Source of the DNA: Alphaproteobacteria bacterium
Lineage (GTDB): Bacteria; Pseudomonadota; Alphaproteobacteria; Rickettsiales; 21-14-0-20-44-7
Direction of reading: 5' to 3'
Assembly (NCBI GenBank): GCA_043757405.1
Contig: JAYVPI010000011.1
Location: 49,297 to 113,296, forward strand
DNA: 64,000 bases
The notes beneath the pieces were generated by a model. That model did not search any database. It was not told the DNA's origin and saw only the letters and a program-made list of their open reading frames with translations. A program made the translations under genes and the position numbers. This document shows positions 5,382 through 55,650 of this stretch, in pieces (the first letter of the stretch is position 1; each line of letters starts with the position of its first letter).

Positions 5382-7862
5382 TTGCAGTACAAGAAAAATC
5401 GGCTAGATTCGAGCAGAATGCAGCCACCCATCCGCCCCAACCGACAACCTAATTCAAGGCAAAATCTCAATTTGCTTATTTCCCGGATGTTGTTCTGGGT
5501 TTTCCTGCTTATTTGCTTCGGCGCAGTGGGTGTTTTTGCCATTTTTGCCTTTTATAGCAAGGACTTGCCGTCTACGGAGGAATTGAAGAATTATTACCCG
5601 AAGACTACCACCCGCCTCTATGACGCCAATGGCGGATTATTGGCGGAATTCGCCTCCGAGCGCCGCGTTTTTGTGCCGATTGGCTTTATTCCCGATAATG
5701 TGAAACAGGCATTTATTTCCGCCGAGGACCAGAATTTTTATGAGCATTCCGGCGTCGATGTAATCTCCATAATTCGTGCTATGGGCAATAACGCCATCAA
5801 TAAATTCACCGGTCATGGCGGCGTCAGCGGCGGTTCCACAATCACCCAGCAAGTGGTGAAAAATCTTCTCCTCACCAAGGAGCGCAGCTTCTCGCGTAAG
5901 GCCAAAGAGGCAATTCTGGCGATTCGCGTTACGCAATCGATGAGCAAGGATAAAATTTTGGAAATTTATTTGAACGAAATTTTCCTAGGTAATCGTTCAT
6001 ATGGCGTAGTGGCGGCGGCATATAATTATTTTAATAAATCGATTGATGAATTGACGATAGAAGAAGCCGCATTTCTTGCCGGCCTGCCGAAAGCGCCCAG
6101 CGAATTTGACCCGCGTAATAATTATGAACGCTCAATGCAACGCCGGAATTATGTTCTCCAAAGGATGCGCCATAATGGTTATATAACCCAGGAACAGGCG
6201 GAAACCGCCGCGGCCAAACCAATTGCATTGCGCGAGGCCAAAGAGAAGGAGATCGTCAGCACCAGCTTCGCTGAAGAAGTTCGCCGTTTTTTGGTGACCA
6301 AATATGGCGAAGAACAAGCTTATGGCGGCGGTTTGACGGTGCGCTCCACGCTGAATCCCAAACTGCAGAAATTCGCCGAGAAGGCTTTGTATGAAGGTAT
6401 TACCGGTTACGATCGCAACCATGGCTGGCGCGGTCCAATTTCTCATGTCCAGGATTTAGAATTGTGGAAGGAACAGCTCTCGGCAATAAAAGACCCGCAA
6501 CAACTTGGCTTGTGGAAGCTTGCTGCAGTGTTGAGCACAAGCGACAAAAGCGCACAAGTGGGTTTCAAAGATGGCAAAACCGCGACGCTTGGCTTCGATG
6601 GCGTGAAATGGGCGCGTAAATGGTATTCCGGCCAACGCATTGGTTTGCCGCCTTCTAACATTAAGGAAGTAATCAAAGCCGGGGATGTCGTCGCGGTTTC
6701 GTTTAAGGATGATAAATATACGCTGGAGCAAATTCCTGATGTAAACGGCGCGATGATTGTCATGGATCCATCCAGCGGCCGCGTGCTGGCGATGGTTGGT
6801 GGTTATCCATATGGCAATAGCGATTTCAACCGCGCGACGCAAGCTAAACGCCAGCCGGGCTCATCATTCAAGCCGATTGTATATCTCGCGGCTTTGGAAA
6901 ACGGTTTCCTGCCATCTACAGTGGTTAATGATGGCCCAATTGCCATTCCGCAAGGGCCGGGTCTTCCTATGTGGACCCCGAAAAACTATGGGGGTGATTT
7001 CTTAGGTCCAATTCCATTACGCATGGCACTCGCTAAATCGCGCAATAATGTGACGGTGCTATTGTCACTAATGATGGGTGTGGGTAAGGTACAGGAAATG
7101 GCGACGCGGCTGGGGGTGTTGGATAAGCCGGAGCCTTATTATTCGATGGTGCTTGGCGCGGATGAAACTACGCTGATGAAGCTGATTACGGCTTATGCGG
7201 TGATTGATAATAATGGTAAGCAAGTAAAACCAATTTTAATTGACCGCATCCAGGACCGCGCCGGCCGCACAATTTTCAAAGGCGATACGCGTGAATGTAT
7301 TGGCTGTAGTGGTGATAAGATCAGCGCCACCGCCCCGCAAATTGTCGATAACGCTAAACAACTCGTTGATCCGGCCACAACATATCAGCTCATCACCATG
7401 ATGCAGGGCGTGATCCAATTTGGTACGGCGACCCGCGCCAAAATTCTTGGCCGCCCGATTGCCGGAAAAACCGGAACCACCAATGACAGCCTTGATACCT
7501 GGTTCATGGGCTTCACGCCGGATATTGTTGTCGGAACTTATATCGGCTTTGACCATCCACGCACTTTAGGCCGTGATGCGACTGGAGCTTCCGTGCCATT
7601 GCCGGCGTTTATCAGCTTCATGCAAAACGCGATGAAAGATGTGCCGCCAAAGCAATTCGCGATTCCATCAGGAGTGCGTTTGCAGCGTATTGATTTGGCC
7701 ACGGGCCGTGCCCCCAATGAATTCACTAACCCGGCCAATATAGGTATGGAAGTCATTAACCCACACGCGCCGGGGAATATCAATTATTCCGACGAATATA
7801 AGGAAAGATATCTGGGCGGTTCCGGCGTTGGTAGTGGATCGATTGATAGCGGCTTATATTAA
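5382..7862 (+). CDS. mrcA: Penicillin-binding protein 1A (glycosyltransferase + transpeptidase)
   Basis: 826 aa with an N-terminal TM anchor, GT51 motifs (EDQNFYEHSGVD, GGSTITQQ), transpeptidase SSFKP (SxxK) and KTGTT. Confidence 0.9.
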   Translation: MQYKKNRLDSSRMQPPIRPNRQPNSRQNLNLLISRMLFWVFLLICFGAVGVFAIFAFYSKDLPSTEELKNYYPKTTTRLYDANGGLLAEFASERRVFVPIGFIPDNVKQAFISAEDQNFYEHSGVDVISIIRAMGNNAINKFTGHGGVSGGSTITQQVVKNLLLTKERSFSRKAKEAILAIRVTQSMSKDKILEIYLNEIFLGNRSYGVVAAAYNYFNKSIDELTIEEAAFLAGLPKAPSEFDPRNNYERSMQRRNYVLQRMRHNGYITQEQAETAAAKPIALREAKEKEIVSTSFAEEVRRFLVTKYGEEQAYGGGLTVRSTLNPKLQKFAEKALYEGITGYDRNHGWRGPISHVQDLELWKEQLSAIKDPQQLGLWKLAAVLSTSDKSAQVGFKDGKTATLGFDGVKWARKWYSGQRIGLPPSNIKEVIKAGDVVAVSFKDDKYTLEQIPDVNGAMIVMDPSSGRVLAMVGGYPYGNSDFNRATQAKRQPGSSFKPIVYLAALENGFLPSTVVNDGPIAIPQGPGLPMWTPKNYGGDFLGPIPLRMALAKSRNNVTVLLSLMMGVGKVQEMATRLGVLDKPEPYYSMVLGADETTLMKLITAYAVIDNNGKQVKPILIDRIQDRAGRTIFKGDTRECIGCSGDKISATAPQIVDNAKQLVDPATTYQLITMMQGVIQFGTATRAKILGRPIAGKTGTTNDSLDTWFMGFTPDIVVGTYIGFDHPRTLGRDATGASVPLPAFISFMQNAMKDVPPKQFAIPSGVRLQRIDLATGRAPNEFTNPANIGMEVINPHAPGNINYSDEYKERYLGGSGVGSGSIDSGLY

Positions 7863-8615
7863 ATCAAATTGCAGCCCATCATATGCTGGTGCAACGCCGC
7901 TTGGCAACTCGCTTTTTATTATGTCGTAATCCAGGTTCGCGCCCATATGGGTTAGGTAGGCTTGTTTGGGTTTGTATTCTTCGATCCATTCCAGGGTTTG
8001 CTTTAAGTGCGAATGCGTCGGCGCAACTTCGCGGCGCAGGCAATCTACCACCCAGACATCGGCGTTATACAAAGAGGATTTTGATTCATTGGGAAAGTTT
8101 TTTACGTCGGTGGAATAGATGAAATTATTGATGCGGTAGCCGACGGAATGGACGGATCCGTGATCTTGTAAAAATGGGAGGATCTTGAATTCACCGAACT
8201 GGAAAGTTTTGAGCATGGAAATATGGTGCGCGCGCAAAGAGGGGCGGAACCAGCCATATTCGGGTTTGGGAGCTTTGAAGCAATAGGCGAAGCGCTCGGT
8301 GATTTCCGCCATGGTTTCTTCATCGCCATAGGCGTCAATAGGGCCTTGTTTGAGGTAGTTAAAAGATTTGATATCGTCAATTCCATGCACATGGTCAGCA
8401 TGGGGGTGTGTGTAAAGCACGGCGTCGATTTTGCTGATATTATTGTCTAAAGCCTGTTGGCGCAGGTCGGGGGAGGTATCGATGAGGATATTGGTTTTTT
8501 CGCCGGTGATGTGGACTGAACAGCGAGTACGGATGTTCTTTGGGTTCGGCGGTATTTGTGCGCCGATATGCGGAACGCCGCTGGATGAGCCGCAGCCGAG
8601 GATGGTGATTTTCAT
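7854..8615 (-). CDS. MBL-fold metallo-hydrolase
   Basis: 253 aa with the THPHADHVHG metal-binding motif. It overlaps the tatD stop, and tatD followed by an MBL gene is a common alphaproteobacterial pair. Confidence 0.8.
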   Translation of the reverse strand: MKITILGCGSSSGVPHIGAQIPPNPKNIRTRCSVHITGEKTNILIDTSPDLRQQALDNNISKIDAVLYTHPHADHVHGIDDIKSFNYLKQGPIDAYGDEETMAEITERFAYCFKAPKPEYGWFRPSLRAHHISMLKTFQFGEFKILPFLQDHGSVHSVGYRINNFIYSTDVKNFPNESKSSLYNADVWVVDCLRREVAPTHSHLKQTLEWIEEYKPKQAYLTHMGANLDYDIIKSELPSGVAPAYDGLQFDLI

Positions 8616-9423: not shown

Positions 9424-10077
9424 ATGAGCAGTCACTTATTCATGCCCGAAAATCTCTCGCGCTATATCAGCGAGACAATCTCCCGCGAGCTTCCGGTGCA
9501 GAAGGCTTTGCGCGTGAAAACTATGGAATTGCCAAATGCCAATATGCTGACAACCCCGGATCAGGTGGGGTTTCTGCAGATGTTGGTGAAGTTGACCGGG
9601 GCGAAGAAGATTTTGGAAATTGGGACTTTTACCGGATATAGCGCATTGGCGATGGCGCTTGTCTTGCCACAGGATGGGAAGTTGACGGCTTGTGATATGA
9701 GCAAAAAATATACCGATATTGGCCGCGAGTTTTGGCAGGAAGCTGGGGTTGCGGAGAAAATTGAAGTGAAGTTGGGCAATGCGCATGAGACTGTGAATGA
9801 GTTGCTTAAAAACGGCGCGAATTTTGATATGGCGTTTATTGACGCGGATAAAGGCGGATATGATTTTTATTATGAAACTTGTTTGAAACTGGTGCGCACC
9901 GGCGGTTTGATCGCTTTTGATAATATGATTTGGGGCGGGGATGTGGCAGATGTTTCAATCACCGACCGCGATACACTGGCGCTCAGGAATTTGAATGCGA
10001 AAATAATTAAAGATGAGCGCGTCGATGCCTGCCTGCTCACCGTGGCAGATGGCATAATGTTGGCGCGCGTGCGCTAG
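9424..10077 (+). CDS. Class I SAM-dependent O-methyltransferase (caffeoyl-CoA OMT-like)
   Basis: ILEIGTFTGYSAL SAM-binding motif and FDMAFIDADK. The ATG at 9424 is preferred over the track start at 9364, which would overlap tatD. Confidence 0.8.
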   Translation: MSSHLFMPENLSRYISETISRELPVQKALRVKTMELPNANMLTTPDQVGFLQMLVKLTGAKKILEIGTFTGYSALAMALVLPQDGKLTACDMSKKYTDIGREFWQEAGVAEKIEVKLGNAHETVNELLKNGANFDMAFIDADKGGYDFYYETCLKLVRTGGLIAFDNMIWGGDVADVSITDRDTLALRNLNAKIIKDERVDACLLTVADGIMLARVR

Positions 10078-10163
10078 AATATGCTGACGATATCCTGGCC
10101 GATACCTTTTACAGTATTGCAGGCGGCGAGAATAACTAAGCTGAATAATGTGAGATATTTCAT
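10074..10163 (-). CDS. Entericidin EcnA/B-family small lipoprotein (29 aa, below the ORF-track cutoff)
   Basis: Hand translation gives MKYLTLFSLVILAACNTVKGIGQDIVSIF. It has an LAAC lipobox followed by CNTxxGxGxD, as in entericidins. Its stop overlaps the OMT stop on the opposite strand. Confidence 0.55.
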   Translation of the reverse strand: MKYLTLFSLVILAACNTVKGIGQDIVSIF

Positions 10164-10259: not shown

Positions 10260-10307
10260 GTGGTGGGCGGTTAGGGATTCGAACCCCAGACCCTCTCGGT
10301 GTAAACG
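10260..10307 (-). repeat. att direct repeat: duplicated 3' portion of tRNA-Val (distal island boundary)
   Basis: 48/48 identity to 16404-16451. It covers the acceptor 3' strand, the T-arm, the variable loop and part of the anticodon arm. Confidence 0.9.
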
Positions 10308-10436
10308 CTAATGTAAAGTTATTTCTGGGATTTACCAGTTCTTTCCTGTGATAGCTGACCCGTTGACTTTACTGCCTTTTTCTCCTTATCGAGGATAGAC
10401 AAGGATTTTTTGAGATTACTCGAAATTGCCTTCCTC

Positions 10437-10456
10437 TGCTTCCCCCGTGCTTCCCC
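10437..10456 (+). promoter_or_regulatory. Putative integrase arm-type site (left copy)
   Basis: tgcttcccccgtgcttcccc recurs at 16318-16337 with 19/20 identity in the same orientation. Both copies lie inside the island near the att cores. Confidence 0.4.
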
Positions 10457-10492
10457 CGAAGCATTTAATCAACCGATAAGGAGAAATATATC

Positions 10493-11752
10493 ATGCCCAA
10501 AATTACAAAACGCACAATCGATACACTTAAAGCCATTTCATCCGACAAAGATGTATTCATCTGGGATTCCGACGACGGCTCACTCAAAGGATTCGGCATC
10601 AGGGTAAAACCTAGCGGTGCAGCTTCTTACTTTGTTCAGTACCGTAACAAAGAGGGGCGCACTCGCCGCCTGGTGCTGGCAAGGGTGACGACTTTCTCGC
10701 CGGAGGAAGCGCGAAAGGAGGCGAGAGTAAAACTCTCCTTTGTGTCAAAAGGCGAAGACCCATCTGCCGAGCGTCACGCTGACAGGAAATCTATGACAGT
10801 TGCGGAATTATGCGACCTGTATTTCATCGAAGGTGCTGGGCATGTGAAGACCTCGACGCTTGTTAATGATAAATCACGCACCTCATGTCATATCAAACCT
10901 CTACTTGGCAACCGCGTTGCAAAGGGCTTAACCATCACTGACATTGAAAAGTTTCAGAACGACATCGCTATCGGCAAAACTGCAACGCGGAAGAAAGAGA
11001 AAGGGCGCGGCGGTAACGTCAGGGGCGGACGCGGCACTGCGGCGCGGACTGTTGATACCTTGAGCATGATTTTGGAATTTGGCAAACGCCGGAAAATCAT
11101 TGGTGAAAATCCTGTGCGCGGTGTCAAGAAATTCGCCAGCGAAAAGCGTAAGCGTTTTCTTTCTAGCGAGGAATTGAAATCCCTGGGTGATGAATTGCGG
11201 AAGATGGAAGACAACGAAGGAAAATATACTGCACCCGCTGCTATCAGGGCTTTGCTCCTGACCGGTTGCCGCAAGAATGAGATGCTTGCCCTGCCGTGGT
11301 CATGGCTCGACGCCAAAGCTCGCTGCATCAGGTTTGAGGATACCAAAAGCGGCGCACAGATACGGCCACTTGGCGCAACAGCAGCCGAATATCTCGGGGC
11401 AATACCAAAAGATGCAAATACTCGCTGGGTCTTTCCGGCGGATAAGAGCCAGGGGCATTATATCGGTCTGCCCAGGGTATTGGAGAGGCTGTGCGAAAGG
11501 GCTGGAATTAAAAATGTAAGTTTGCATGTTCTCCGCCACACCTTCGCGGCATCAGCAGCGGAGCTTGGATATTCCGTTCTTACAATCGCCGGATTACTTG
11601 GCCATAGCGTACCAGGCGTGACCGCACGTTACGCGCATGTGCCAGACCGCGCTTTAATCTCTGCAGCCAATCATGTTTCCAAATATGTAATGGAGATGTT
11701 GGAGGGGAAAGAGGAAGCCAATGTCGTGCAACTCCGGAACATGGCGGGATAG
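10493..11752 (+). CDS. int: Tyrosine site-specific integrase (P4-like, DUF4102 arm-binding N-terminus)
   Basis: 419 aa. N-terminal LKGFGIRVKPSGAASYFVQYR (DUF4102-like) and C-terminal HVLRHTFAS...LLGHS...YAH catalytic R-H-R-Y region. AAGGAG SD 9 nt upstream. Confidence 0.9.
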   Translation: MPKITKRTIDTLKAISSDKDVFIWDSDDGSLKGFGIRVKPSGAASYFVQYRNKEGRTRRLVLARVTTFSPEEARKEARVKLSFVSKGEDPSAERHADRKSMTVAELCDLYFIEGAGHVKTSTLVNDKSRTSCHIKPLLGNRVAKGLTITDIEKFQNDIAIGKTATRKKEKGRGGNVRGGRGTAARTVDTLSMILEFGKRRKIIGENPVRGVKKFASEKRKRFLSSEELKSLGDELRKMEDNEGKYTAPAAIRALLLTGCRKNEMLALPWSWLDAKARCIRFEDTKSGAQIRPLGATAAEYLGAIPKDANTRWVFPADKSQGHYIGLPRVLERLCERAGIKNVSLHVLRHTFAASAAELGYSVLTIAGLLGHSVPGVTARYAHVPDRALISAANHVSKYVMEMLEGKEEANVVQLRNMAG

Positions 11753-11851
11753 TCTGTAAATTTCTGTGGACAGCACTCATCTATTTCGAATAACCTCAAT
11801 TCACCATCCATGTAAAAAAGTCTTAAACAATAATGTAGGACAGGTTTTTAT

Positions 11852-12082
11852 ATGGTCGAAAATAATATTTCTATTAAGCGGCTTCGTCGCAAACAGGCTT
11901 CCAAGTATCTGGAGGAAAAGTGGAGCATCAATCGCGCTCCAAGCACATTAGCAAAACTTGCAGTTATTGGCGGTGGGCCGAAGTTTCAGCATGTTAATCG
12001 CATTCCATTATACCCAATCACAGAACTGGACGATTGGGCCAGCGCAATGTTAAGCCCTCTGAAATCGTCTACAAGCGAATAG
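11852..12082 (+). CDS. AlpA/excisionase-like helix-turn-helix protein
   Basis: 76 aa. Its size, its position after int, and the pattern ...STLAKLAVIGGGPKF...IPLYPITELDDWA resemble AlpA/Xis-family DNA-binding proteins. Confidence 0.55.
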   Translation: MVENNISIKRLRRKQASKYLEEKWSINRAPSTLAKLAVIGGGPKFQHVNRIPLYPITELDDWASAMLSPLKSSTSE

Positions 12083-12089
12083 CGTTAGT

Positions 12090-12629
12090 ATGAGTTCTGT
12101 ATACTTCAACCCTGTGTATGCGACTAAGTATGGAGTCGGAGAGGCCATATTAATTGAGAATTTCCAATTTTGGATTGGGATTAATCAAGGTAATGGCGTG
12201 AACCTTCATGAAGGACGTACATGGTCATTCATGACGCAGCAGCAGTTGTCAGATAAATTCCCGTTTTTTAAGAAAAAGAAAATTGAAAGGCTTCTGGAAT
12301 CATTGTGCGCACAAGGAATAATCATAAAAGGCAGATTCAACAAGCGTAAAAACGACCGCACAACCTGGTATGCATTTAACAATGAAACCGAGTTTATACC
12401 TAATAAGTCATTGAAAATACTCAAAGGTCAAAATCGAGATATCGATTTCCCAGAATTGGAACATCCACCATACGGAAATGACCCAGCGTTACCAGATATA
12501 AAACAAAATAATAAAACTAATTATCCAAATGAAGGATTTAACAATGCAACTTACTCAAACAAAAAATCAAAATTTGAACTTATCGCAGCTGGGGTTCATC
12601 ACGAAATTCTTAAACGCTCCGAAAATTAA
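12090..12629 (+). CDS. Winged-helix DNA-binding protein (replication/regulation-associated, island-encoded)
   Basis: 179 aa. HEGRTWSFMTQQQLSDKFPFFKKKKIERLLESLCAQGIIIKGRFNKRKNDRTTWYAF resembles replisome-organizer-type wHTH proteins of phages and islands. Confidence 0.45.
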   Translation: MSSVYFNPVYATKYGVGEAILIENFQFWIGINQGNGVNLHEGRTWSFMTQQQLSDKFPFFKKKKIERLLESLCAQGIIIKGRFNKRKNDRTTWYAFNNETEFIPNKSLKILKGQNRDIDFPELEHPPYGNDPALPDIKQNNKTNYPNEGFNNATYSNKKSKFELIAAGVHHEILKRSEN

Positions 12630-13107
12630 TTGGCAGGAGTATAAGCGGCTCTACGAGAAAGACATGAGTTATGAAAAACCGCCCACACTTGATGCAAGTC
12701 ATTTACCAACAATTCGTGCAATGATGAAAGAATTGGAGAATTTGGTGCTGCCAATCCGCCAGTTTCCGCAGCAACAAAATATCTTATCACAAGAGATTTT
12801 GAAATCAGCTTTGGCTCATCGGATTAAAGATGACCTGGGAGAAATTGGCGGCAGATTACGCGATGCAGTTTTCCAAGAAGATTTAGGAGGATTTCCATTG
12901 GATGTAATTCTTGAAGCAATGAAATCATGGCGGCAAAAGCAACCATATTTTCCAGCGACGTCTGACATTGTTAAACTTGCAGAGAAGTTATTGTTCGCTA
13001 GGAAGCAGCAAATTATGAAACTCAAAGTTTTGGAGGAAAAGATTCTTAAATCACATTCTTTGCAGCATCAAGAAAATATCACAACTAATCAAACGGTTTC
13101 AAACTAA
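12529..13107 (+). CDS. Hypothetical island protein (start uncertain)
   Basis: 192-aa ORF whose first 100 nt overlap the previous ORF out of frame. An internal Met at 12664 would remove the overlap. No recognizable motif. Confidence 0.4.
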   Translation: MKDLTMQLTQTKNQNLNLSQLGFITKFLNAPKINWQEYKRLYEKDMSYEKPPTLDASHLPTIRAMMKELENLVLPIRQFPQQQNILSQEILKSALAHRIKDDLGEIGGRLRDAVFQEDLGGFPLDVILEAMKSWRQKQPYFPATSDIVKLAEKLLFARKQQIMKLKVLEEKILKSHSLQHQENITTNQTVSN

Positions 13108-13113
13108 TGACGG

Positions 13114-13464
13114 TTGTTCAGAATGGCGAATTATAATGGAAATCCGAATATTGCAATCTACGGTCAGCGCACCCAGTTCGGCCAGCCCAAAGGGGCTGAT
13201 TCAAAGATAGCGCGGAAGATGGCATTCAATCCCTGGCTAATACGAAATGCAGTCCGGCGCATTGGATGCACCGTATTCGATGCGAATAGGCCTTTCACTG
13301 TGGAATACATCCTGAACACAATAGCTCCAAAGGGGAAGGCCACTGGTGCACAATATTTTGCTGCTACGCTATTTGTACGAGCAATGACGGATGGAAAAGC
13401 TAATAAACTTGTTGGTGACATCATTGATGGGCCAGCCAGTAAACAGAGGGAGAGAGATTGCTAG
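13114..13464 (+). CDS. Hypothetical island protein
   Basis: 116-aa ORF with coherent coding appearance. No recognizable motif. Confidence 0.4.
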   Translation: MFRMANYNGNPNIAIYGQRTQFGQPKGADSKIARKMAFNPWLIRNAVRRIGCTVFDANRPFTVEYILNTIAPKGKATGAQYFAATLFVRAMTDGKANKLVGDIIDGPASKQRERDC

Positions 13465-13499
13465 GTTAAGGGCATTAGAGCGGTAAGTTAATAGCCTGA

Positions 13500-14039
13500 T
13501 TATCTGGATTTGCATTTCCTCCAATATCGATAAAAACAATATGGTGGAAAAATTAACAACATTATAAAAATTAGTCCTTCAAGGCCAATAATAAAATAAA
13601 TAGCTGGTAGCGCCCATGCGTAAGGCAAACCTGTTTTATCCCAAGCTATGCCTACTTGGAAAGAAACACACGTTGTAATAAGAGTTAAAAACCCATTATG
13701 ACAGGAAAGATTTCTCTGCTCTTCTTGAAGTTGAAGAACTGCTAAGTATTCTTGAAAACTTTTATATTTTTGAGGGTTTGTGCGAATTTGCTGAAAGTAA
13801 GAAGGATGAGAAGCTAAGCCTTGCTTTATTTCTGGATGGGTTTCTGCTAAGCGCATAAATTCTTGGATTTCTTTCTCTACTTTTTGTTGATGTACATTTT
13901 CTTCGTTAAGCCTTTTAATGTGTAATTCTTCTTGCCTCAATTCCTCCATATCACTCTCAAGATTGTATACAGCCTGAGCATGTGCGGGTATAATTACAAC
14001 AAGAATAATAGTTATAACAATTTTGAAAAATAGTTTCAT
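13500..14039 (-). CDS. Signal-peptide/coiled-coil membrane protein (island cargo)
   Basis: 179 aa. N-terminal signal-like MKLFFKIVITIILVVIIPAHAQA, a charged helical middle region and two C-terminal hydrophobic segments. Transcribed divergently from the SIR2-like gene. Confidence 0.55.
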   Translation of the reverse strand: MKLFFKIVITIILVVIIPAHAQAVYNLESDMEELRQEELHIKRLNEENVHQQKVEKEIQEFMRLAETHPEIKQGLASHPSYFQQIRTNPQKYKSFQEYLAVLQLQEEQRNLSCHNGFLTLITTCVSFQVGIAWDKTGLPYAWALPAIYFIIGLEGLIFIMLLIFPPYCFYRYWRKCKSR

Positions 14040-14237
14040 GATTCCCTCAACTTGGTGTCGGGGAGTTTCAAAAACCTATTCAAGAAAAGGTTCGCATTGG
14101 TCTTCGGGCAAGCCCTGTTATATGCACCAATACCTCCCCGACTAAGTCGAGGAGTGCGAATGACGGTCACACAATGCCGCCTTGAATAAGAGGTTTGAAC
14201 GCCCCAGAACTTGTGTAAGTCCTGATTTGAAGATAAC

Positions 14238-15377
14238 ATGCTACCTTTTCAGGTCAACAAAGTAATGCAAAACCATAAAGACTCACCAGAAAAGCTAGTG
14301 TTCGTTCTTGGAGCAGGGGCAAGCTCTCATTTTGGCTATCCATTAGGAAGCCAGCTTATAAAAGCAATGGAAATGTTCCTTAAAACAATATCTGTAAGAA
14401 ATAAAAACGAATATGAGAAAGACGGAAACATTCAAAGGGCCAGAGAATTTCTTACACAAATTCAGTCATACAATCCTTTGAACATTGATTATTACTTACA
14501 TAATAATCCAGACGAAGAAGAAATGGGTAAAAGGCTCATAGAAGCAACAATATTACATTGTCAAAATTCCAAGCTGTTCAAACATAATACCAGAGAAGAA
14601 ATTTGGTGGAAAAAGACTATGGTATTGTCAGAGAAAAAATATGTCAATTCCGCTAATTGGGTCAAATTTATCCATCATAAAATTGTCGCGAATTGCAAAA
14701 CTGTTGATGACGTCATTAAAGAACTGAACGATATAACCATCATAACATTCAACTATGATTTATCTTTTGAGCAGGCTTTGTGGGAATACTTTAAGAAAAG
14801 CAAATTTGAAAAAGTAAGAGAATTTTTATTTTCTCAATTTTACGAGAAAAACGTGATTCATATTAATGGAAAAGTTTCTAATAAAAATCTTAACGGCGAG
14901 CCTGTAAAAGATGATTACGAATGTCTTAATTTTGATGCAGATGGTGACCAAGCATACACTCGCTTTTTACAGTCAGACGGAGGCGGTATTGAAATAGTTG
15001 GAGTAGATAAGGCCAAACCAAATTCTCTAGCAGTAGAGAGGATAAAAGAAGCCCACTTATTATATCTGCTAGGATATGCTTTTGATGAGTTTAACAATTA
15101 TGTCATTGGCCTAGACACGCCATTCCAGCTTGGAAATAAGAATTTCAATTTCTACTACACAAATATGGCCGGCGGAGCGATAGTTGACAGCAAAGTCAGA
15201 AGTTTTTTTGACCCTTACGACATCAGAAGTTTTGGAGCAGATTCAAGAATCAAACAGGCTTTCAGAACCAGAGAAGATGACGCTCAACTATATGGCAATA
15301 TAGTAAAGTCTGAAAAGAATGTTTATAAAGCATTGGAAGAAGACTTGTTTATTCCTGTTATGAAGAAACTAAGTTAA
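14238..15377 (+). CDS. Stand-alone SIR2-like (SIR2_2-type) protein, putative NADase effector
   Basis: 379 aa with ordered motifs VFVLGAGASSHFGYP, IITFNYD, VIHINGK and LLYLLGYAFDEFN, matching the GAGxS / TTNYD / hHG / GYSxxD landmarks of defence-type SIR2 domains. Alternative start at 14265. Confidence 0.6.
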   Translation: MLPFQVNKVMQNHKDSPEKLVFVLGAGASSHFGYPLGSQLIKAMEMFLKTISVRNKNEYEKDGNIQRAREFLTQIQSYNPLNIDYYLHNNPDEEEMGKRLIEATILHCQNSKLFKHNTREEIWWKKTMVLSEKKYVNSANWVKFIHHKIVANCKTVDDVIKELNDITIITFNYDLSFEQALWEYFKKSKFEKVREFLFSQFYEKNVIHINGKVSNKNLNGEPVKDDYECLNFDADGDQAYTRFLQSDGGGIEIVGVDKAKPNSLAVERIKEAHLLYLLGYAFDEFNNYVIGLDTPFQLGNKNFNFYYTNMAGGAIVDSKVRSFFDPYDIRSFGADSRIKQAFRTREDDAQLYGNIVKSEKNVYKALEEDLFIPVMKKLS

Positions 15378-15410
15378 AATTATCTCTGCTACACATAAGA
15401 AACTAGCTTA

Positions 15411-16268
15411 TCATTCAACTATATCTTTCAGAACTTGTGGATTCTGTTCTGATGCCAACGAATTATGTCGGGATAACTCGTCAGCATATTTCATTACATT
15501 GGCTGCCCGCTCGGCTGTTTCTTTATCTGTATTCCTTCCCTCAATAATGTTTACTAGCTCTTTGACCAGCAACTCATCCAATTCAGTCAACAAGTTGAAA
15601 TAACCTTTGAGGCCATATTTATTTATGTAATCAGCTCTATGTGGTAATGCTGCAAGTAATAATTTCTTTTCTGCTTCGCTATCAATTAATTTCGCCAAAT
15701 CCGAAGTTCCAATACTTAATAATTTAATTCGCATGTAAGCCCCAGCTAGAATCGTCTGCAAAGCAGTAAAATAAGCCCAAGCAATCGGAGAAATATACGG
15801 CTTTTCGGCAAGAGACGAAGGATAAGGAGCGTCATCAGCCTTTATCATCTTGGCTTGATTATCGAAGAACTGCTGAATTTTTTTGTCATACACAGCACGT
15901 TCAGCCGCTTTTTCAAAATTTATAACTGATAATGACATTGCACCTATCCGGTAGCTGTTATAAGCAATCACAGCTGCCCATAGATTATCAACCGCTTTAA
16001 TTCGTCTCTCATCCAAAAGCGCATCCCGCCGGCTACCTCGTGATAAGATGGTTTCTTTTAATAATGAAATCTGACTCTCTTTTGAGCGCAGGTCACTCTT
16101 CAATGTCTCTTCGCTATTTCGGTAATCGCTACGAAGATTTTCCAGGCTAGATTCAAATTCGTGTTTAACTGCTTCGACAACTCTTGTTTTTAGTCCAAGG
16201 TAAAGGAGGCCTATTACGCCTGATACAACAAAAGACAGAATCGTTAGTAAATCACGCAAATCAATCAT
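15411..16268 (-). CDS. N-terminally membrane-anchored coiled-coil protein (island cargo)
   Basis: 285 aa. One TM segment (LLTILSFVVSGVIGLLYLGL), then a heptad-like charged region and an all-helical C-terminal domain. Convergent with the SIR2-like gene, 33-nt gap. Confidence 0.55.
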   Translation of the reverse strand: MIDLRDLLTILSFVVSGVIGLLYLGLKTRVVEAVKHEFESSLENLRSDYRNSEETLKSDLRSKESQISLLKETILSRGSRRDALLDERRIKAVDNLWAAVIAYNSYRIGAMSLSVINFEKAAERAVYDKKIQQFFDNQAKMIKADDAPYPSSLAEKPYISPIAWAYFTALQTILAGAYMRIKLLSIGTSDLAKLIDSEAEKKLLLAALPHRADYINKYGLKGYFNLLTELDELLVKELVNIIEGRNTDKETAERAANVMKYADELSRHNSLASEQNPQVLKDIVE

Positions 16269-16317
16269 ATTTTATCCGAGGACATTTTAGTTCCTGTAAT
16301 AGTTTTAATCAACGGCT

Positions 16318-16337
16318 TGCTTCCCCCATGCTTCCCC
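16318..16337 (+). promoter_or_regulatory. Putative integrase arm-type site (right copy)
   Basis: tgcttcccccatgcttcccc has 19/20 identity to 10437-10456. It lies 67 nt inside the tRNA-proximal att core. Confidence 0.4.
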
Positions 16338-16404
16338 GACGAGAAGCAGATGTCTTGCCAGATTCCCCAGAACCTGTTAAACAACAGACAGATAAAGAGA
16401 AAAG

Positions 16405-16481
16405 TGGTGGGCGGTTAGGGATTCGAACCCCAGACCCTCTCGGTGTAAACGAGATGCTCTAACCAGCTGAGCTAACCGCCC
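16405..16481 (-). tRNA. tRNA-Val (anticodon UAC), CCA encoded
   Basis: Hand-folded cloverleaf: acceptor GGGCGGT/ACCGCCC, D-arm GCTC..GAGC, anticodon arm TCTCG-TTTACAC-CGAGA, T-arm TGGGG-TTCGAAT-CCCTA, 3' ACCA. Confidence 0.95.
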
Positions 16482-16766
16482 GAAAAATCCATTTCTATGA
16501 GCATCTGCTTGCAGTTTCCTGCGCTTCCGGTGCTCATGTACGAGAAGTACATTCCGCGCCGGTTCTTGAAAACTGCGGCGCATCTGTCTCATATAAATGA
16601 ATTTTACTCCATTTATATTGGAGCGCTTGTTTAGCAATTAATCCCTGGCTAAGCAACCCTTTTTTGACTCAACTTGAGCCGTCAGCCCGCCGCATCCGGC
16701 GGCGTTTCAAAGTAGCGTCCGCAACGCTGTCTTTGAAACAATCAATAATGGAGTTAATTAATCGGC

Positions 16767-17088: not shown

Positions 17089-17250
17089 ATTATTACCCTA
17101 TGGTTATCTATGTTATACCCTTTCGCAAACTGGCTCTGCGCCTGGCCCCGAAGAGTTTTTCCAGAAAAAACCAATTTTAAACTTCTGTCAACCAGAAAAG
17201 CGGAGATTTCTGCGCTTTTCCGCGAAATGGTAAAATTAAACACAGTAGTT

Positions 17251-17448
17251 TTAATTGCGCTAGAAGCGCCGCGCATGCCCTGTGGGCAGCTGTCGCCCTC
17301 AATGGGCTCGCTCAGTCGGGTCTAGTGCCCTCCTTCAGTGGAGGTTTTCCCTTCTAGGCAGTTGATGCTATGGAATCCGAGCGCATCGCGCGAAGGCAAG
17401 GCCATTGAGGCGGGAAGCTTTCTTGTGCGGCGCTTCTAGCGCAATTAA
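17251..17448. mobile_element. MITE-like element with perfect 22-bp terminal inverted repeats (copy 1)
   Basis: ttaattgcgctagaagcgccgc (17251-17272) is the exact reverse complement of 17427-17448. The interior is homologous, in inverted orientation, to 20657-20849. Confidence 0.8.
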
Positions 17449-17450
17449 AA

Positions 17451-19856
17451 TTAATGCGGAAGATGAATCTCGTCGCTGCCTTTGCCGTCTTTTTTCTTTT
17501 TGGTGAACTCACCATCCCACAGAACAGGAACTAGTGGTTGCGACAATGCGTGTTTCAGCACATCATCAACGGTTTCAACCGGGATAATTTCCAGATGATT
17601 TTTTACATTGTCAGGAATATCAGCCAAATCTTTCAAGTTTTCTTGTGGAATGAGAACTGTTTTGATGCCGCTGCGAAGTGCCGCCAGCATTTTCTCTTTC
17701 AAGCCGCCGATCGGCAGCACGCGGCCACGCAATGTAATTTCACCAGTCATGGCTACGTCTTTGCGCACCGGGATGCCGGAAAGTACTGATACAATTGATG
17801 TACACATCGCGACACCCGCGCTTGGCCCGTCTTTTGGCGTGGCGCCCTCAGGAACGTGGACATGAATGTCTTTGTCTTGGAATTCAGGTGGTTTAATTCC
17901 GTAATCCAGGCAGCGGAAACGTACGAAGCTGGCTGCTGCTTCGATTGATTCCTTCATTACTTTTTCCAGGTTGCCGGTATAGGAGATTTTGCCTTTGCCG
18001 CCGGGCAATGCTACTGCTTCGATTTGCAGGATATCGCCGCCGGTTTCGGTATATGCTAATCCGGTGGTGATGCCGATCAAATCACTTTTCTCAGTTTGAC
18101 CGTAGGAATATTTGCGGACTTTGGCGAATTTTTCCAAGTTCTTGCGGGTGATGGCCATTTTGGTGACTTTGCCGCTGACGATTTTTTTCAAACTCTTGCG
18201 GATGAGATTAGCCAATTCCCGCTCAAGGTTTCGTACTCCGGCTTCGCGTGTGTAATAGCGAATTAGATCAGTGATGGCATCGTCGGTGATTTTCCATTCA
18301 TCAAGTTTCATCGAATGTGATTCGATGAGTTTCGGAATTAAATGGGTTTTAGCAATTTCGATTTTTTCTTCTTCCGTGTAACCGCCGATGCGGATGATTT
18401 CCATCCTGTCGAGTAGCGGGCGCGGGAGTTTTAATGTGTTCGCAGTAGCGATGAACATTACATCGGAGAGATCGTAATCGACTTCCAAATAATGATCGTT
18501 GAATTTATTGTTTTGTTCAGGGTCGAGTACTTCCAGCAATGCGGAAGATGGATCGCCGCGGAAATCATGGCTCATTTTATCGATTTCATCGAGAAGGATA
18601 AGCGGGTTGGAGTGCTTCACCTTCTTCATCGACTGGATAATTTTGCCTGGCATTGAGCCAAGATATGTCCGGCGGTGGCCGCGGATTTCTGCTTCGTCAC
18701 GCATGCCGCCGAGGGAGATTTTAGCAAATTGACGACCTGTAGCTTCCGCAATAGAGCGGCCGAGCGAGGTTTTGCCGACGCCTGGAGGGCCAACTAAACA
18801 GAGGATAGGGCCGCGCATTTTGCCACCGGTGCGGGATTGCACGGCTAAGTATTCTAAAATGCGTTCTTTAACTTGTTCCAAACCATAATGGTCTTTCTGC
18901 AGGACGGATTCAGCGTCGTTTATATCGGTTTTGATTTGCGTTGGGGCTTTCCACGGCAATGTTGTGATCCAATCCAGGTAATTGCGGATGACACTGGCTT
19001 CCGCCGACATCGCGCTCATGCTTTTGAGTTTTTTCAGCTCGCCTTTCGCTTTCTCTTTGGCTTCATCGGAGAGTTTCAGCTCGCTGATCTTTTTCTCAAA
19101 CTCGGCGATATCATCTTTGCCGTCATCCTCATCGAGTTCTTTGTGAATGGCTTTCAATTGCTCATTCAAATAATAATCTTTCTGGTTTTTTTCGATTTGG
19201 TTTTTAACGCGGCCGCGGATTTTGATTTCAGTGTTAATCAAACCGATTTCGCGCTCAAGCAATGAGGAAATTTCTTCCAGGCGGATTTTCGGGTTCAATT
19301 CATCAAGAAGTTTTTGGCGTTCCTGGATTTTGATTGGTAAATAGCTCGCCAATTTATCCGACAAATCTCCCGGATGGGTGATTTTATTGATATTCTCTAA
19401 AATATTGAACGGGATGCGGCGGTTGATTTTTAAATATTCACCGAATTGGCGAATCACAGTGCGGCACAATGCCTCCACTTCCGGGACGGAAGCTTCGACT
19501 TCGTCGAGTGCGGTGACTTCTGCTTCGGAATAATCTTTATGCACGGTGTATGTTTTTACGCGGGCGCGGCGTTCGCCTTCGACCAGGACTTTTACTGTGC
19601 CGTCCGGAAGTTTCAAAAGATGCAGCACTGAGCAGATGACGCCGACTTCGTATAATTTATTATGTTCCGGATCGTCGTCGCTGGGAGTTATTTGTGTGAC
19701 TAAAAATACTTTGCGCATTCCGTCATTCAGGCACACTTCCAATGCTTTGATCGATTTTTCGCGGCCAACCAAGAGTGAAGGAACGGTGCCGGGAAAAACC
19801 ACGACATCACGTAAGGGAAGTACCGGATAGGTTTCTTTCGCTGTCCGTTTAAACAT
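17451..19856 (-). CDS. lon: ATP-dependent Lon protease
   Basis: LON N-domain ([13 protein letters not shown]), Walker [10 protein letters not shown], and protease motif [11 protein letters not shown] with the catalytic Ser. The ATG at 19856 is preferred over the track start at 19886. Confidence 0.93.
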
Positions 19857-19953
19857 ATTTGTAATGTAGTGCATGCACTTTAGCATTTCAAGTCAGTTAT
19901 TAGTTGATGGGGTGGGGTTGATGGTTTATATGAGTGGAAACATTAGAGGATTT

Positions 19954-55246: not shown

Positions 55247-55421
55247 TAGCCCCCAGAGCCGTCCCGCCTTCGCTCTTTCGAGCTACGGCGCGCCAAGCAG
55301 CCCGCCGCGGCATTGTTATCGCAGAGTCGACGTGAACGGAGAGCCGTCAACGTCGCGCATCCGCGACTGTTTTGAATCGCGAGCGCCCGAGCGCTCGATT
55401 CAAAACAATTATAAATAGAAT

Positions 55422-55571
55422 GGCTCCACAACAACCGTTGGCAGTTTGATTCGCCGAGGTCCTATGATTATAGGTGGGCGCCATATACCAGGCCCACGGG
55501 CCTGACAGGGACAGCTCCCTCTCGTTGAATGAGTATCGACCCTGGGAATGCAGTCGCCTAAACGAGAAGCC
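55422..55571 (-). ncRNA. ssrS: Candidate 6S RNA (SsrS)
   Basis: ~150-nt GC-rich non-coding stretch directly upstream of the 5-FCL gene, which is the classic ssrS-ygfA synteny. The ends pair (GGCUUC/GGAGCC, with further interrupted helices) and there is an apical hairpin caggcccgtgggcctg. The boundaries are approximate. Confidence 0.35.
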
Positions 55572-55650
55572 GCAGAAATCCATTCTAAACGATAATATAG
55601 CACCAATTCACCGTAATTGCAATTAGCCGGGGCTATTATATAATGATTTC

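What the first reader, a model, noticed from the sequence alone, without database searches (positions are those of the whole stretch)
10260..16451. Minimalist 6.1-kb integrative island in tRNA-Val(UAC) with exact 48-bp att repeats
The tRNA 3' portion (16404-16451) is duplicated exactly at 10260-10307. Between the copies are int, an AlpA/Xis-like gene, a wHTH gene, two or three small unknown ORFs and the cargo above. There are no capsid, terminase, primase or conjugation genes. The integrase sits at the tRNA-distal end reading inward. The size and gene content resemble phage satellites or mobilizable minimal islands rather than a prophage. The perfect repeats suggest recent or still possible excision. 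The flanks (OMT + entericidin on one side, tRNA-Val-hupB-lon on the other) are a conserved core context.
Basis: partly seen in the sequence, partly recalled or inferred. Interest (0 to 1): 0.6.

Follow-up and report, generated by a model that had tools for sequence, protein, structure and literature searches.

The report
Small tRNA-Val island carrying defence gene
A 6.1-kb piece of foreign DNA sits in a valine tRNA gene of an uncultured alphaproteobacterium; it carries its own integration, excision and replication genes plus a likely anti-phage enzyme, which makes it a well-preserved but fairly ordinary small mobile island.

Summary
An exact 48-bp direct repeat (10260-10307 and 16404-16451) duplicates the 3' part of tRNA-Val(TAC) and brackets 6,144 bp.

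- **Foreign composition.** The island has 41% GC against 48% for the rest of the window. Its tetranucleotide distance lies about 15 sd outside equally sized host windows.
- **Absent in relatives.** A relative with 92% identical Lon has hupB, tRNA-Val and the O-methyltransferase gene within about 900 bp, with no island.
- **Integration module.** The integrase looks intact and has an arm-binding domain. ORF2 is a homologue of the RdfS excisionase. TGCTTCCCC pairs sit on both arms. These pairs recur at the same positions in related 4.4-8 kb tRNA-Gly islands, so they are probably arm-type integrase sites.
- **Replication and cargo.** The cargo is a SIR2-fold protein that keeps the catalytic motifs, plus two membrane proteins.
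- **What is missing.** No capsid, terminase, primase, relaxase or conjugation genes were found.

The architecture (inward-facing integrase, excisionase, small replication module, defence cargo) matches PICMI satellites and cargo tycheposons. It fails the PICMI membership criteria, having no primase and no fis site.

Excision and the route of transfer between cells remain inferred. I rate it a new member of a known kind, of moderate interest.

The parts
10260..10307 (-). attL core: displaced copy of tRNA-Val positions 31-77 plus 1 nt
   Evidence: Exact 48-bp match to 16404-16451
10437..10456 (+). Int-proximal arm: two TGCTTCCCC copies 11 nt apart, 37-56 nt upstream of the integrase start; candidate arm-type integrase sites overlapping the integrase promoter region
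   Evidence: All 4 copies of the 9-mer in the 64-kb window lie in the island (expected 0.49). The core GCTTCCCC appears as tandem copies upstream of the integrase gene in 35 of 70 related loci
10493..11752 (+). Tyrosine integrase, 419 aa, with an N-terminal arm-binding domain
   Evidence: Pfam Phage_integrase 1.5e-19, Arm-DNA-bind_3 2.3e-12, Phage_int_SAM_3; phrog_1 integrase 4.9e-56. K285, H345, R348, H371 and Y380 are invariant and R260 nearly invariant in a 35-sequence alignment
11852..12082 (+). ORF2, 76 aa: RdfS-like winged-helix recombination directionality factor (excisionase)
   Evidence: phmmer against PDB hits 8dgl_A RdfS at E = 6.8e-6. Homologues lie downstream of the integrase in 27 of 47 related loci that are long enough, co-oriented in 26. 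No Pfam hit
12090..12629 (+). ORF3, 179 aa: homologue of the N-terminal half of phage replication initiators (O-like / DnaD-like)
   Evidence: phrog_11233 replication initiation protein 1e-26, phrog_6493 1e-15, phrog_678 1.5e-8. tblastn finds 153 phage records, 30-35% identical, annotated as replication initiation protein. Homologues lie next to DnaB-like or primase/helicase genes
12664..13107 (+). ORF4, 147 aa (the ORF is open from 12529): unknown function; possibly the detached C-terminal half of the initiator
   Evidence: No family, PDB or phage match. It lies in the +1 frame and overlaps the end of ORF3. 179 + 147 aa is close to the 312-316 aa of the phage homologues. This is inference only
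13123..13464 (+). ORF5, 113 aa: unknown function
   Evidence: No match in any library
13500..14039 (-). ORF6, 179 aa: predicted secreted or membrane protein (N-terminal signal-like segment, hydrophobic C-terminus); unknown function
   Evidence: Read from the sequence; no significant family
14238..15377 (+). ORF7, 379 aa: SIR2-fold protein; candidate NAD-degrading anti-phage effector
   Evidence: PADLOC SIR2 2.7e-5, and 44 of 64 family members hit SIR2 models. G25-A-G-A28, N172 and H208 are invariant and D174 nearly invariant. The AF2 model has pLDDT 86.8, and its top 41 Foldseek PDB matches are all entries of SIR2-containing anti-phage systems (SIR2-HerA, SPARSA, KomC, DSR2) or sirtuins
15411..16268 (-). 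ORF8, 285 aa: N-terminal transmembrane helix followed by a helical domain; unknown function
   Evidence: Read from the sequence; no match
16318..16337 (+). tRNA-proximal arm: two TGCTTCCCC copies 11 nt apart, 67-86 nt from the core
   Evidence: The same pair lies 74-85 nt before attR in the related islands L028, L029 and L070. A remnant pair lies at the same place after tRNA-Val in relative L117
16404..16451 (-). attR core, inside the intact tRNA
16405..16481 (-). tRNA-Val(TAC), the integration target, intact
   Evidence: ARAGORN; Rfam 68.6 bits; 77 of 77 nt identical to the tRNA of relative L023
9424..10077 (+). Left flank, core gene: O-methyltransferase
   Evidence: Pfam Methyltransf_3 1.2e-70; syntenic in L023
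16816..17088 (-). Right flank, core gene: hupB (HU), followed by lon at 17451-19886
   Evidence: Pfam Bac_DNA_binding 4.2e-33; lon-hupB-tRNA-Val synteny in 7 relatives

Best explanation
This is a horizontally acquired, site-specific integrative mini-element of 6,144 bp (one core copy included) in the 3' half of tRNA-Val(TAC).

Proposed mechanism:
1. The integrase binds the 48-bp core and, through its N-terminal arm-binding domain, the TGCTTCCCC pairs on both arms. It recombined a circular attP with the tRNA. The element's own core copy restored the tRNA, and the original 3' segment was displaced to attL.
2. The pair just upstream of the integrase gene probably also gives integrase autoregulation, as shown for IntS of ICEMlSymR7A.
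3. ORF2, an RdfS-type winged-helix factor, would switch the reaction to excision.
4. ORF3, a phage-type initiator (possibly acting with ORF4), would recruit the host helicase and replisome to amplify the excised circle.
5. The right-hand 2.9 kb is cargo: a SIR2-fold protein expected to deplete NAD+ on phage infection, and two membrane proteins of unknown role.
6. The element encodes nothing for packaging or conjugation, so transfer between cells must depend on a helper of unknown type.

Shown here: the repeats, gene identities, foreign composition, absence in a relative, and conservation of the arm motif across the integrase family. Inferred: present-day excision, replication, the defence function and helper dependence.
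For: - **Repeat and target.** The exact 48-bp repeat equals the tRNA 3' part, and the tRNA is intact.
- **Integrase.** It has catalytic and arm-binding domains. K285, H345, R348, H371 and Y380 are invariant and R260 nearly invariant in a 35-sequence alignment.
- **Excisionase.** ORF2 matches RdfS at E = 6.8e-6. The pairing of integrase and RdfS-like gene recurs in 27 of 47 related loci.
- **Arm motif.** All 4 copies of TGCTTCCCC in the window lie 67-86 nt and 130-149 nt from the cores. The core GCTTCCCC is tandem upstream of the integrase gene in 35 of 70 related loci. A pair lies 74-85 nt before attR in three tRNA-Gly islands.
- **Literature model.** IntS arm sites and autoregulation, and the role of RdfS, are described in PMC11963761.
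- **Replication.** ORF3 hits phage replication initiators. The related island L086 has a DnaD/O-like gene at the same position, and L070 has a Toprim primase there.
- **Composition.** GC is 0.411 against 0.477. The lowest of 183 host windows of equal size is 0.456. Tetranucleotide distance is 0.290 against 0.124 +/- 0.011.
- **Relatives.** L023 lacks the island.
- **Cargo.** SIR2 motifs and fold are present.
Against: - No read-level evidence of attP or attB junctions was available. The independent Logan contigs (k = 31) break at the 48-bp repeat and cannot tell attL from attB.
- No iterons or other origin-like repeats were found.
- ORF3 covers only the N-terminal half of its phage homologues, so the initiator may be truncated or split.
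- ORF2 has no Pfam hit.
- The relative lacking the island is not collinear at base level, because its tRNA segment is inverted.
- The SIR2 assignment rests on motifs and modest structural scores (TM 0.3-0.56), and no partner from a known defence system is present.
Confidence: 0.8

Rival explanations
1. It is a true phage satellite of the minimalist kind, analogous to PICMI. A helper phage induces ORF2 and excision, ORF3 drives replication, and concatemers are packaged into helper capsids through a short DNA signal, with no satellite-encoded packaging proteins.
For: Size and layout are almost the same as PICMI115, a satellite of about 6.1 kb with int, alpA, prim and a defence gene and no packaging genes (PMC10803314). 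The replication gene is of phage origin. The cargo is a defence candidate. Related integrases occur on IMG/VR viral contigs.
Against: No helper phage, cos site or pac site is known. Apart from ORF3, the island proteins and DNA have no relative in phage or viral collections. Three PICMI marker criteria are not met: primase family, fis site, and AlpA Pfam families. Nothing in the window is phage-like.
Confidence: 0.25
2. It is an integrative mobilizable element that carries only an origin of transfer (iOriT type) and is moved by a conjugative element's relaxase and secretion system.
For: The closest characterised excisionase, RdfS, belongs to a conjugative element of Alphaproteobacteria. Elements carrying only an oriT are known (PMC11389934).
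Against: No relaxase, coupling protein or secretion genes are present. No oriT could be recognised. The replication gene is phage-type, not plasmid-type. There is no DNA similarity to 72,556 plasmids beyond the tRNA piece.
Confidence: 0.1
3. It is an immobile remnant: a decayed prophage, satellite or island that still has repeats but no longer excises or spreads.
For: The initiator may be truncated or split. There is no origin-like repeat. The exact island was seen only in two sequencing runs of adjacent accession number (SRR23617272 and SRR23617274). Relative L117 shows that such elements do decay at this site, leaving an arm remnant without an integrase.
Against: The 48-bp repeats are perfect. 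The integrase is full length with all catalytic residues. Arm sites on both sides are intact. All eight ORFs are open. Strong compositional contrast argues for recent arrival. Related islands of 4.4-8 kb have the same compact design, so small size is the normal state and not decay.
Confidence: 0.15
4. It is an assembly artefact. The element belongs to a co-occurring strain or is a free circle, and was threaded into this locus through the shared tRNA sequence.
For: The window comes from a metagenome assembly. The tRNA is 100% identical between related species. Contigs of relatives break at this tRNA. The k = 31 contigs cannot resolve the 48-bp repeat.
Against: Even then the element would be a real tRNA-Val integrating element carrying the same core. 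The assembled contig runs through both junctions, each of them next to sequence that occurs once in the window. The arm-site geometry at both ends matches integrated relatives.
Confidence: 0.03

Closest known systems
PICMI (phage-inducible chromosomal minimalist islands of Vibrionaceae; PMC10803314)
   Same: About 6.1 kb; integrase at one end reading inward; excisionase-type regulator next; a small replication gene; one or two unknown genes; defence cargo at the far end; no capsid or terminase genes.
   Different: The replication gene is an O/DnaD-like initiator, not a DUF3987/DUF5906 primase. The target is tRNA-Val, not the 3' end of fis. The host is an alphaproteobacterium. ORF2 does not reach the AlpA Pfam models. 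No helper phage is known.
Cargo-carrying tycheposons (Prochlorococcus and other marine bacteria; bioRxiv 10.1101/2020.12.28.424599)
   Same: Integration into a tRNA gene with a partial tRNA repeat; inward-facing tyrosine recombinase at one end; small replication module beside it; cargo; no packaging genes.
   Different: Tycheposons are defined by their own recombinase lineage and a shared hallmark gene set, neither tested here. Here the integrase is of the widespread Arm-DNA-bind_3 (DUF4102) type. The element is smaller than the 10-20 kbp that paper gives for PICIs and tycheposons.
IntS/RdfS integration module of ICEMlSymR7A (Mesorhizobium; PMC11963761)
   Same: Integrase gene immediately inside attL; several arm-type sites in attP, including sites just upstream of the integrase gene; an RdfS-family winged-helix excisionase. 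The tRNA target of ICEMlSymR7A is from my own knowledge, not from the passages read.
   Different: That element is a symbiosis island with full conjugation machinery (its roughly 500-kb size is from my own knowledge) and a different arm motif (TGKTGGTATC). This one is 6 kb and has no transfer genes.
P4-like satellites and PICIs
   Same: Integrase, AlpA-type regulator and replication backbone, with defence genes in a variable region.
   Different: No Psu, Delta or Sid, no small terminase subunit, no capsid-remodelling genes, no primase-helicase.
Stand-alone SIR2 defence proteins (PADLOC SIR2 models; SIR2-HerA, DSR2, KomC, SPARSA)
   Same: SIR2 Rossmann fold with the GAGxS, NxD and H motifs.
   Different: No HerA, Argonaute, KomA/B or sensor domain. 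About 380 aa with a C-terminal beta-rich domain of unknown role. Only 10-16% identical to solved structures.

Membership tests
tRNA-integrated genomic island with tyrosine integrase (generic) | Direct repeat equal to the 3' part of a tRNA gene, bracketing the element, with the intact tRNA at one end | tested here: met
   48 of 48 bp identical; tRNA positions 31-77
tRNA-integrated genomic island with tyrosine integrase (generic) | Integrase gene next to one att site, with catalytic residues present | tested here: met
tRNA-integrated genomic island with tyrosine integrase (generic) | Atypical composition, and absence from the same locus in relatives | tested here: met
   (GC, tetranucleotides); L023 lacks the island. 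The comparison is not base-exact because of an inversion
PICMI | Integrase (PF00589, PF00239 or PF07508) | tested here: met
   PF00589 at 1.5e-19
PICMI | AlpA (PF05930 or PF12728) | tested here: not met
   No Pfam hit even at E <= 10. A related excisionase fold is indicated by the RdfS match
PICMI | Primase (DUF3987 PF13148 or DUF5906 PF19263) | tested here: not met
   No such domain in any ORF. ORF3 is an O/DnaD-like initiator instead
PICMI | Integration downstream of fis | tested here: not met
   The target is tRNA-Val
PICMI | Induction, replication and packaging by a helper phage | not testable with these tools
   Needs infection experiments or virome reads
PICI / cfPICI / P4-like / PLE satellites | Packaging or capsid-redirection genes (terS, capsid, Sid/Psu/Delta, and similar) | tested here: not met
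   None found in Pfam, PHROGs or NCBIfam
Tycheposon | Inward-facing site-specific integrase at one end, small replication module beside it, cargo, tRNA target with partial tRNA copy | tested here: met
   definition taken
Tycheposon | Recombinase of the tycheposon-specific lineage and shared hallmark gene profiles | not tested
   Profiles were not available. The integrase belongs to the common Arm-DNA-bind_3 type, so membership is doubtful
Prophage | Capsid, terminase, tail and lysis genes | tested here: not met
ICE / IME with relaxase | Relaxase, coupling protein, type IV secretion genes | tested here: not met
IME with oriT only | An oriT recognised by a helper's relaxase | not testable with these tools
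   No oriT library was available; no plasmid DNA similarity
SIR2 anti-phage effectors | SIR2 fold with NAD-binding GAGxS and catalytic N, D and H | tested here: met
SIR2 anti-phage effectors | Partner of a named system (HerA, ThsB, pAgo, KomA/B) or a DSR-type sensor domain | tested here: not met
   No such hit among the island proteins. ORF6 and ORF8 homologues are absent next to distant SIR2 relatives
SIR2 anti-phage effectors | NADase activity and phage protection | not testable with these tools
   Experimental

The most novel reading that the evidence does not exclude
The element is the alphaproteobacterial counterpart of PICMI: a minimalist phage satellite that uses an O/DnaD-type initiator in place of a primase. 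The integrase subfamily marked by GCTTCCCC arm sites would then define a large, undescribed family of 4-11 kb helper-dependent mini-elements. These would sit at tRNA-Val and tRNA-Gly and shuttle defence genes (SIR2, type III restriction-modification, DUF3800) among environmental Alphaproteobacteria.
Probability: 0.25. Interest if true: 0.6.

Novelty: new member of a known kind. Interest (0 to 1): 0.4.

Why it matters
Small islands that encode integration, excision and replication but no means of transfer may make up much of the unexplained mobile DNA in bacteria.

This one is an unusually clean example from an uncultured alphaproteobacterium. It has perfect att sites and a conserved, recognisable arm-site signature. 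It has a replication module swapped in from phages and a defence-type cargo gene.

The arm motif and its fixed spacing give a simple way to delimit relatives in metagenomes. That would allow a survey of what such mini-elements carry. It does not change current concepts.

Tried and rejected
- **Exact-sequence look-up of HU.** Not on record.
- **Logan contigs of the source run.** They break exactly at the repeat: L021 ends 30 nt into it and L011 starts at its first base. With k = 31 they cannot tell attL from attB or attP, so I rejected them as evidence of excision.
- **Structure of ORF7 from a single sequence.** It failed with pLDDT 35. A 64-sequence alignment fixed it.
- **Iterons or an origin.** Nothing convincing.
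- **Island DNA against phages and plasmids.** Only the tRNA piece matched.
- **ORF3, ORF4, ORF5 and ORF8 against viral contigs.** Nothing.
- **ORF4 and ORF5 against phage genomes.** Nothing.
- **ORF4, ORF5 and ORF8 against PDB sequences.** Nothing.
- **ORF4 as the C-terminal half of a split initiator.** The only alignments, to the C-terminal half of the phage initiators, are not significant at E of about 0.1. I left this as a note.
- **ORF6 or ORF8 as conserved partners of the SIR2 gene.** There was no co-occurrence in 14 viral loci holding distant SIR2 relatives.


Full report
**Observation**

The window holds one tRNA gene, tRNA-Val(TAC), at 16405-16481 on the minus strand (Rfam 68.6 bits). 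The 48 bases at 16404-16451 are repeated exactly at 10260-10307. No third copy with up to three mismatches exists, and none appeared in shuffles. The repeat covers tRNA positions 31-77 plus one downstream base. The two copies are 6,144 bp apart.

**Gene content**

- **Integrase, 10493-11752 (+), 419 aa.** It has Pfam Phage_integrase, Arm-DNA-bind_3 and SAM-like domains. In a 35-sequence alignment K285, H345, R348, H371 and Y380 are invariant and R260 nearly invariant.
- **ORF2, 11852-12082 (+), 76 aa.** It has no Pfam hit. It matches the solved excisionase RdfS of the Mesorhizobium element ICEMlSymR7A (PDB 8dgl, E = 6.8e-6).
- **ORF3, 12090-12629 (+), 179 aa.** It matches PHROG families of replication initiators and DnaD-like loaders (1e-26 to 1.5e-8). 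It also matches 153 phage genomes at 30-35% identity, where the gene is annotated as a replication initiation protein and lies next to a primase/helicase gene. Metagenomic homologues lie in a phage contig and next to a DnaB-like helicase gene.
- **ORF4 (12664-13107) and ORF5 (13123-13464).** Neither has any relative anywhere I looked.
- **ORF6 (13500-14039, minus) and ORF8 (15411-16268, minus).** Both are predicted membrane proteins with no detectable homologues.
- **ORF7, 14238-15377 (+), 379 aa.** It belongs to a family with 1,941 cluster representatives.
  - An alignment of 64 members keeps the SIR2 signature: G25-A-G-A28, N172 and H208 invariant, D174 nearly invariant.
  - 44 of the 64 members hit PADLOC SIR2 models.
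  - With that alignment AlphaFold gives pLDDT 86.8 and pTM 0.89.
  - The top 41 Foldseek PDB matches are all entries of SIR2-containing anti-phage systems (SIR2-HerA, SPARSA, KomC, DSR2) or sirtuins, though TM-scores are modest at about 0.3-0.56.
- **Not found in any of four libraries.** Capsid, terminase, tail, lysis, primase, relaxase and secretion genes are all absent.

**Foreign origin**

Island GC is 0.411 against 0.477 for the rest of the window. The lowest of 183 equally sized host windows is 0.456 (sd 0.012). Tetranucleotide distance to the host is 0.290 against 0.124 +/- 0.011.

Composition inside the island is mosaic. The integrase gene is at 0.51, ORF3 and ORF4 at 0.36-0.39, and ORF6 to ORF8 at 0.34-0.39. 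This suggests modules of different origin.

**Relatives**

The source is a 155.7-kb NCBI contig. The same island was seen in Logan assemblies of SRR23617274. Close relatives were found through Lon.

- **L023 (Lon 92% identical).** It has lon, hupB, tRNA-Val, a 151-aa lipoprotein gene, the O-methyltransferase gene, tatD and an MBL-fold gene. Only 905 bp separate hupB from the methyltransferase gene, against 6.7 kb in the window. Its tRNA is 77 of 77 nt identical.
- **Caveat on L023.** The tRNA and about 50 nt of its upstream region are inverted relative to hupB, and the spacers differ. This is not a base-exact empty attB.
- **L117 (Lon 81%).** It has tRNA-Val co-directional with hupB, as in the window. 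Two GGGAAGCA copies start 68-79 nt after the tRNA 3' end. They are followed by low-GC DNA with Ku and LigD genes, with no integrase gene and no second att copy. This looks like the remnant of a related element at the same site.

**Arm sites and the integrase family**

The 9-mer TGCTTCCCC occurs four times in the 64 kb, where 0.49 are expected. All four are on the plus strand and inside the island. One 11-nt-spaced pair lies at 10437-10456, 130-149 nt from the attL core and 37-56 nt upstream of the integrase start. The other lies at 16318-16337, 67-86 nt from the attR core.

The integrase has thousands of relatives at about 60% identity. I fetched 90 loci with related integrases.

- The core GCTTCCCC appears as two to four tandem copies 45-90 nt upstream of the integrase start in 35 of 70 loci with enough upstream sequence. 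An inverted copy often lies near -25.
- Four loci could be delimited by exact 47-52 bp repeats of tRNA-Gly(GCC): L028 (6.6 kb), L029 (4.4 kb), L070 (8.0 kb) and L086 (11.2 kb).
- In L028, L029 and L070 a GCTTCCCC pair lies 74-85 nt before attR, the same distance as in the window. L086, with a more distant integrase, has a different tandem motif (GTTACCT) at that place.

A motif conserved in position on both arms, across elements with different tRNA targets and unrelated cargo, is what arm-type integrase binding sites look like. In ICEMlSymR7A five such sites are needed for integration. IntS represses its own promoter there, and RdfS binds beside one of them (PMC11963761). Binding has not been shown for the present element.

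**Backbone of the family**

An ORF2 homologue lies downstream of the integrase gene in 27 of 47 loci that are long enough, co-oriented in 26. The gene after it is a replication gene of varying type:

- a DnaD/O-like protein in L086 (PHROG hits from 8.5e-22 to 2.6e-16);
- a Toprim primase plus a DUF3631 protein in L070, with the primase type recurring in five loci.

Cargo differs between elements. L086 carries a type III restriction-modification pair and a macro-domain protein, judged from the translated sequences only and not scanned. L028 and L029 carry a DUF3800 protein. ORF3 to ORF8 of the window occur in none of these loci.

Compact elements with an integrase, an excisionase, a replication module and cargo are therefore the normal form in this family. 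They are not a decay product.

**Mechanism**

The best-supported reading is a site-specific integrative mini-element.

- Integration and excision work through the integrase, the arm sites and the RdfS-like factor.
- The excised circle can probably be amplified by the phage-type initiator.
- The element carries a SIR2 NAD-degrading defence candidate.
- Lacking any transfer genes, it depends on a helper to move between cells.

The first step rests on sequence evidence and on the characterised IntS/RdfS system. Replication, defence and helper dependence are inferred.

Weak points are as follows. There is no origin-like repeat. ORF3 covers only the N-terminal ~160 residues of 312-316-aa phage homologues, with ORF4 following in the +1 frame. 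A split gene is possible, but ORF4 shows no significant similarity to the phage C-termini. No read-level junction data were available.

**Comparison with known systems**

- **PICMI.** The layout and size are nearly those of PICMI115 from Vibrio, a satellite of about 6.1 kb with int, iolg, alpA, up1, prim and a defence gene up2, and no packaging genes (PMC10803314). Three of that family's four search criteria are not met here: AlpA Pfam families, DUF3987/DUF5906 primase, and the fis site.
- **Tycheposons.** The element fits the architectural definition of cargo-carrying tycheposons: an inward-facing integrase, a small adjacent replication module, a tRNA target and cargo. Membership needs their specific recombinase lineage, which I could not test and which is doubtful.
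- **Other classes.** It is not a prophage, a PICI, a P4-like element, an ICE or a relaxase-bearing IME.
- **General category.** It belongs to helper-dependent "hitcher" elements (PMC11389934).

**Verdict**

It is a new member of a known kind. It has two useful additions: the phage-type initiator, and the conserved arm-site signature that links it to a wider set of 4-11 kb tRNA islands in metagenomes. Whether a phage is the helper remains open; I put that at about 0.25. Interest is 0.4.

Noticed in passing
window 16405-16660; loci L023 7705-7935, L135 6505-6562, L024 (last 60 nt), L026 (last 30 nt), L117 11392-11468, L118 13202-13278: The tRNA-Val gene and about 50 nt of its upstream region point opposite ways relative to hupB in different relatives. 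They are co-directional with hupB in the window, L026 (Lon 86%), L117 (81%) and L118 (74%). They are inverted in L023 and L135 (both 92%) and L024 (85%). At least two inversions are needed, and one breakpoint is the tRNA 3' end, which is the att site. Integrase-mediated inversion between inverted att remnants is a possible cause but is untested.
   Followed up: partly
L117 11469-18660: In a relative with Lon 81% identical, the arm-site pair (GGGAAGCA twice) starts 68-79 nt after tRNA-Val. Behind it lie 7 kb of lower-GC DNA (0.40 against 0.45) with Ku, LigD and other genes, but no integrase gene and no second att copy. This looks like a decayed related element at the same site, so the site has been used more than once.
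   Followed up: partly
L028 806-7435 and L029 9760-14175: Two metagenome contigs carry the same tRNA-Gly(GCC) island backbone: an identical integrase, 308-, 154- and 94-aa genes, and a DUF3800 gene. They differ by a 2.2-kb block of four or five small ORFs, giving 6.6 kb against 4.4 kb. This shows cargo turnover inside otherwise identical mini-islands.
   Followed up: partly
window 12090-13107: ORF3 (179 aa) aligns only to the N-terminal ~160 aa of 312-316-aa phage replication initiators. ORF4 follows in the +1 frame with a 100-nt overlap of open frames (12529-12629). Together they make 326 aa. This could be a split or frameshifted initiator, or a natural two-gene arrangement.
   Followed up: partly
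L086 11268-11885, L028 2320-3246: In many related islands one gene of unknown function starts at or overlaps the integrase stop codon and sits between the integrase and excisionase genes. This recalls the 'integrase-overlapping gene' iolg that PICMI115 needs for excision. The window's island lacks such a gene; its excisionase gene follows the integrase gene after 99 bp.
   Followed up: no
window 16680-16750 and 17243-17456; L023 3551-3687 and 7705-7770: GC-rich hairpin elements (for example GTCAGCCCGCCGCATCCGGCGGC) recur in several intergenic regions of this genome and of its relative. They resemble REP-type repeats and complicate alignment of the spacers around the tRNA.
   Followed up: no
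window 55419-55581 (minus strand): A 6S RNA (SsrS) gene is found at Rfam's gathering threshold (50.1 bits).
   Followed up: no
window 10074-10163 (minus strand): A 29-aa entericidin-like lipoprotein ORF (MKYLTLFSLVILAACNTVKGIGQDIVSIF) overlaps the stop codon of the O-methyltransferase gene by 4 nt. In relative L023 this position holds an unrelated 151-aa lipoprotein gene instead.
   Followed up: partly
window 7854-8615 (minus strand): The MBL-fold hydrolase gene two genes left of the island carries a precomputed Pfam hit to Anti-Pycsar_Apyc1 in the contig annotations. It is syntenic in relatives, so it is probably a housekeeping MBL-fold gene and not a counter-defence gene.
   Followed up: no
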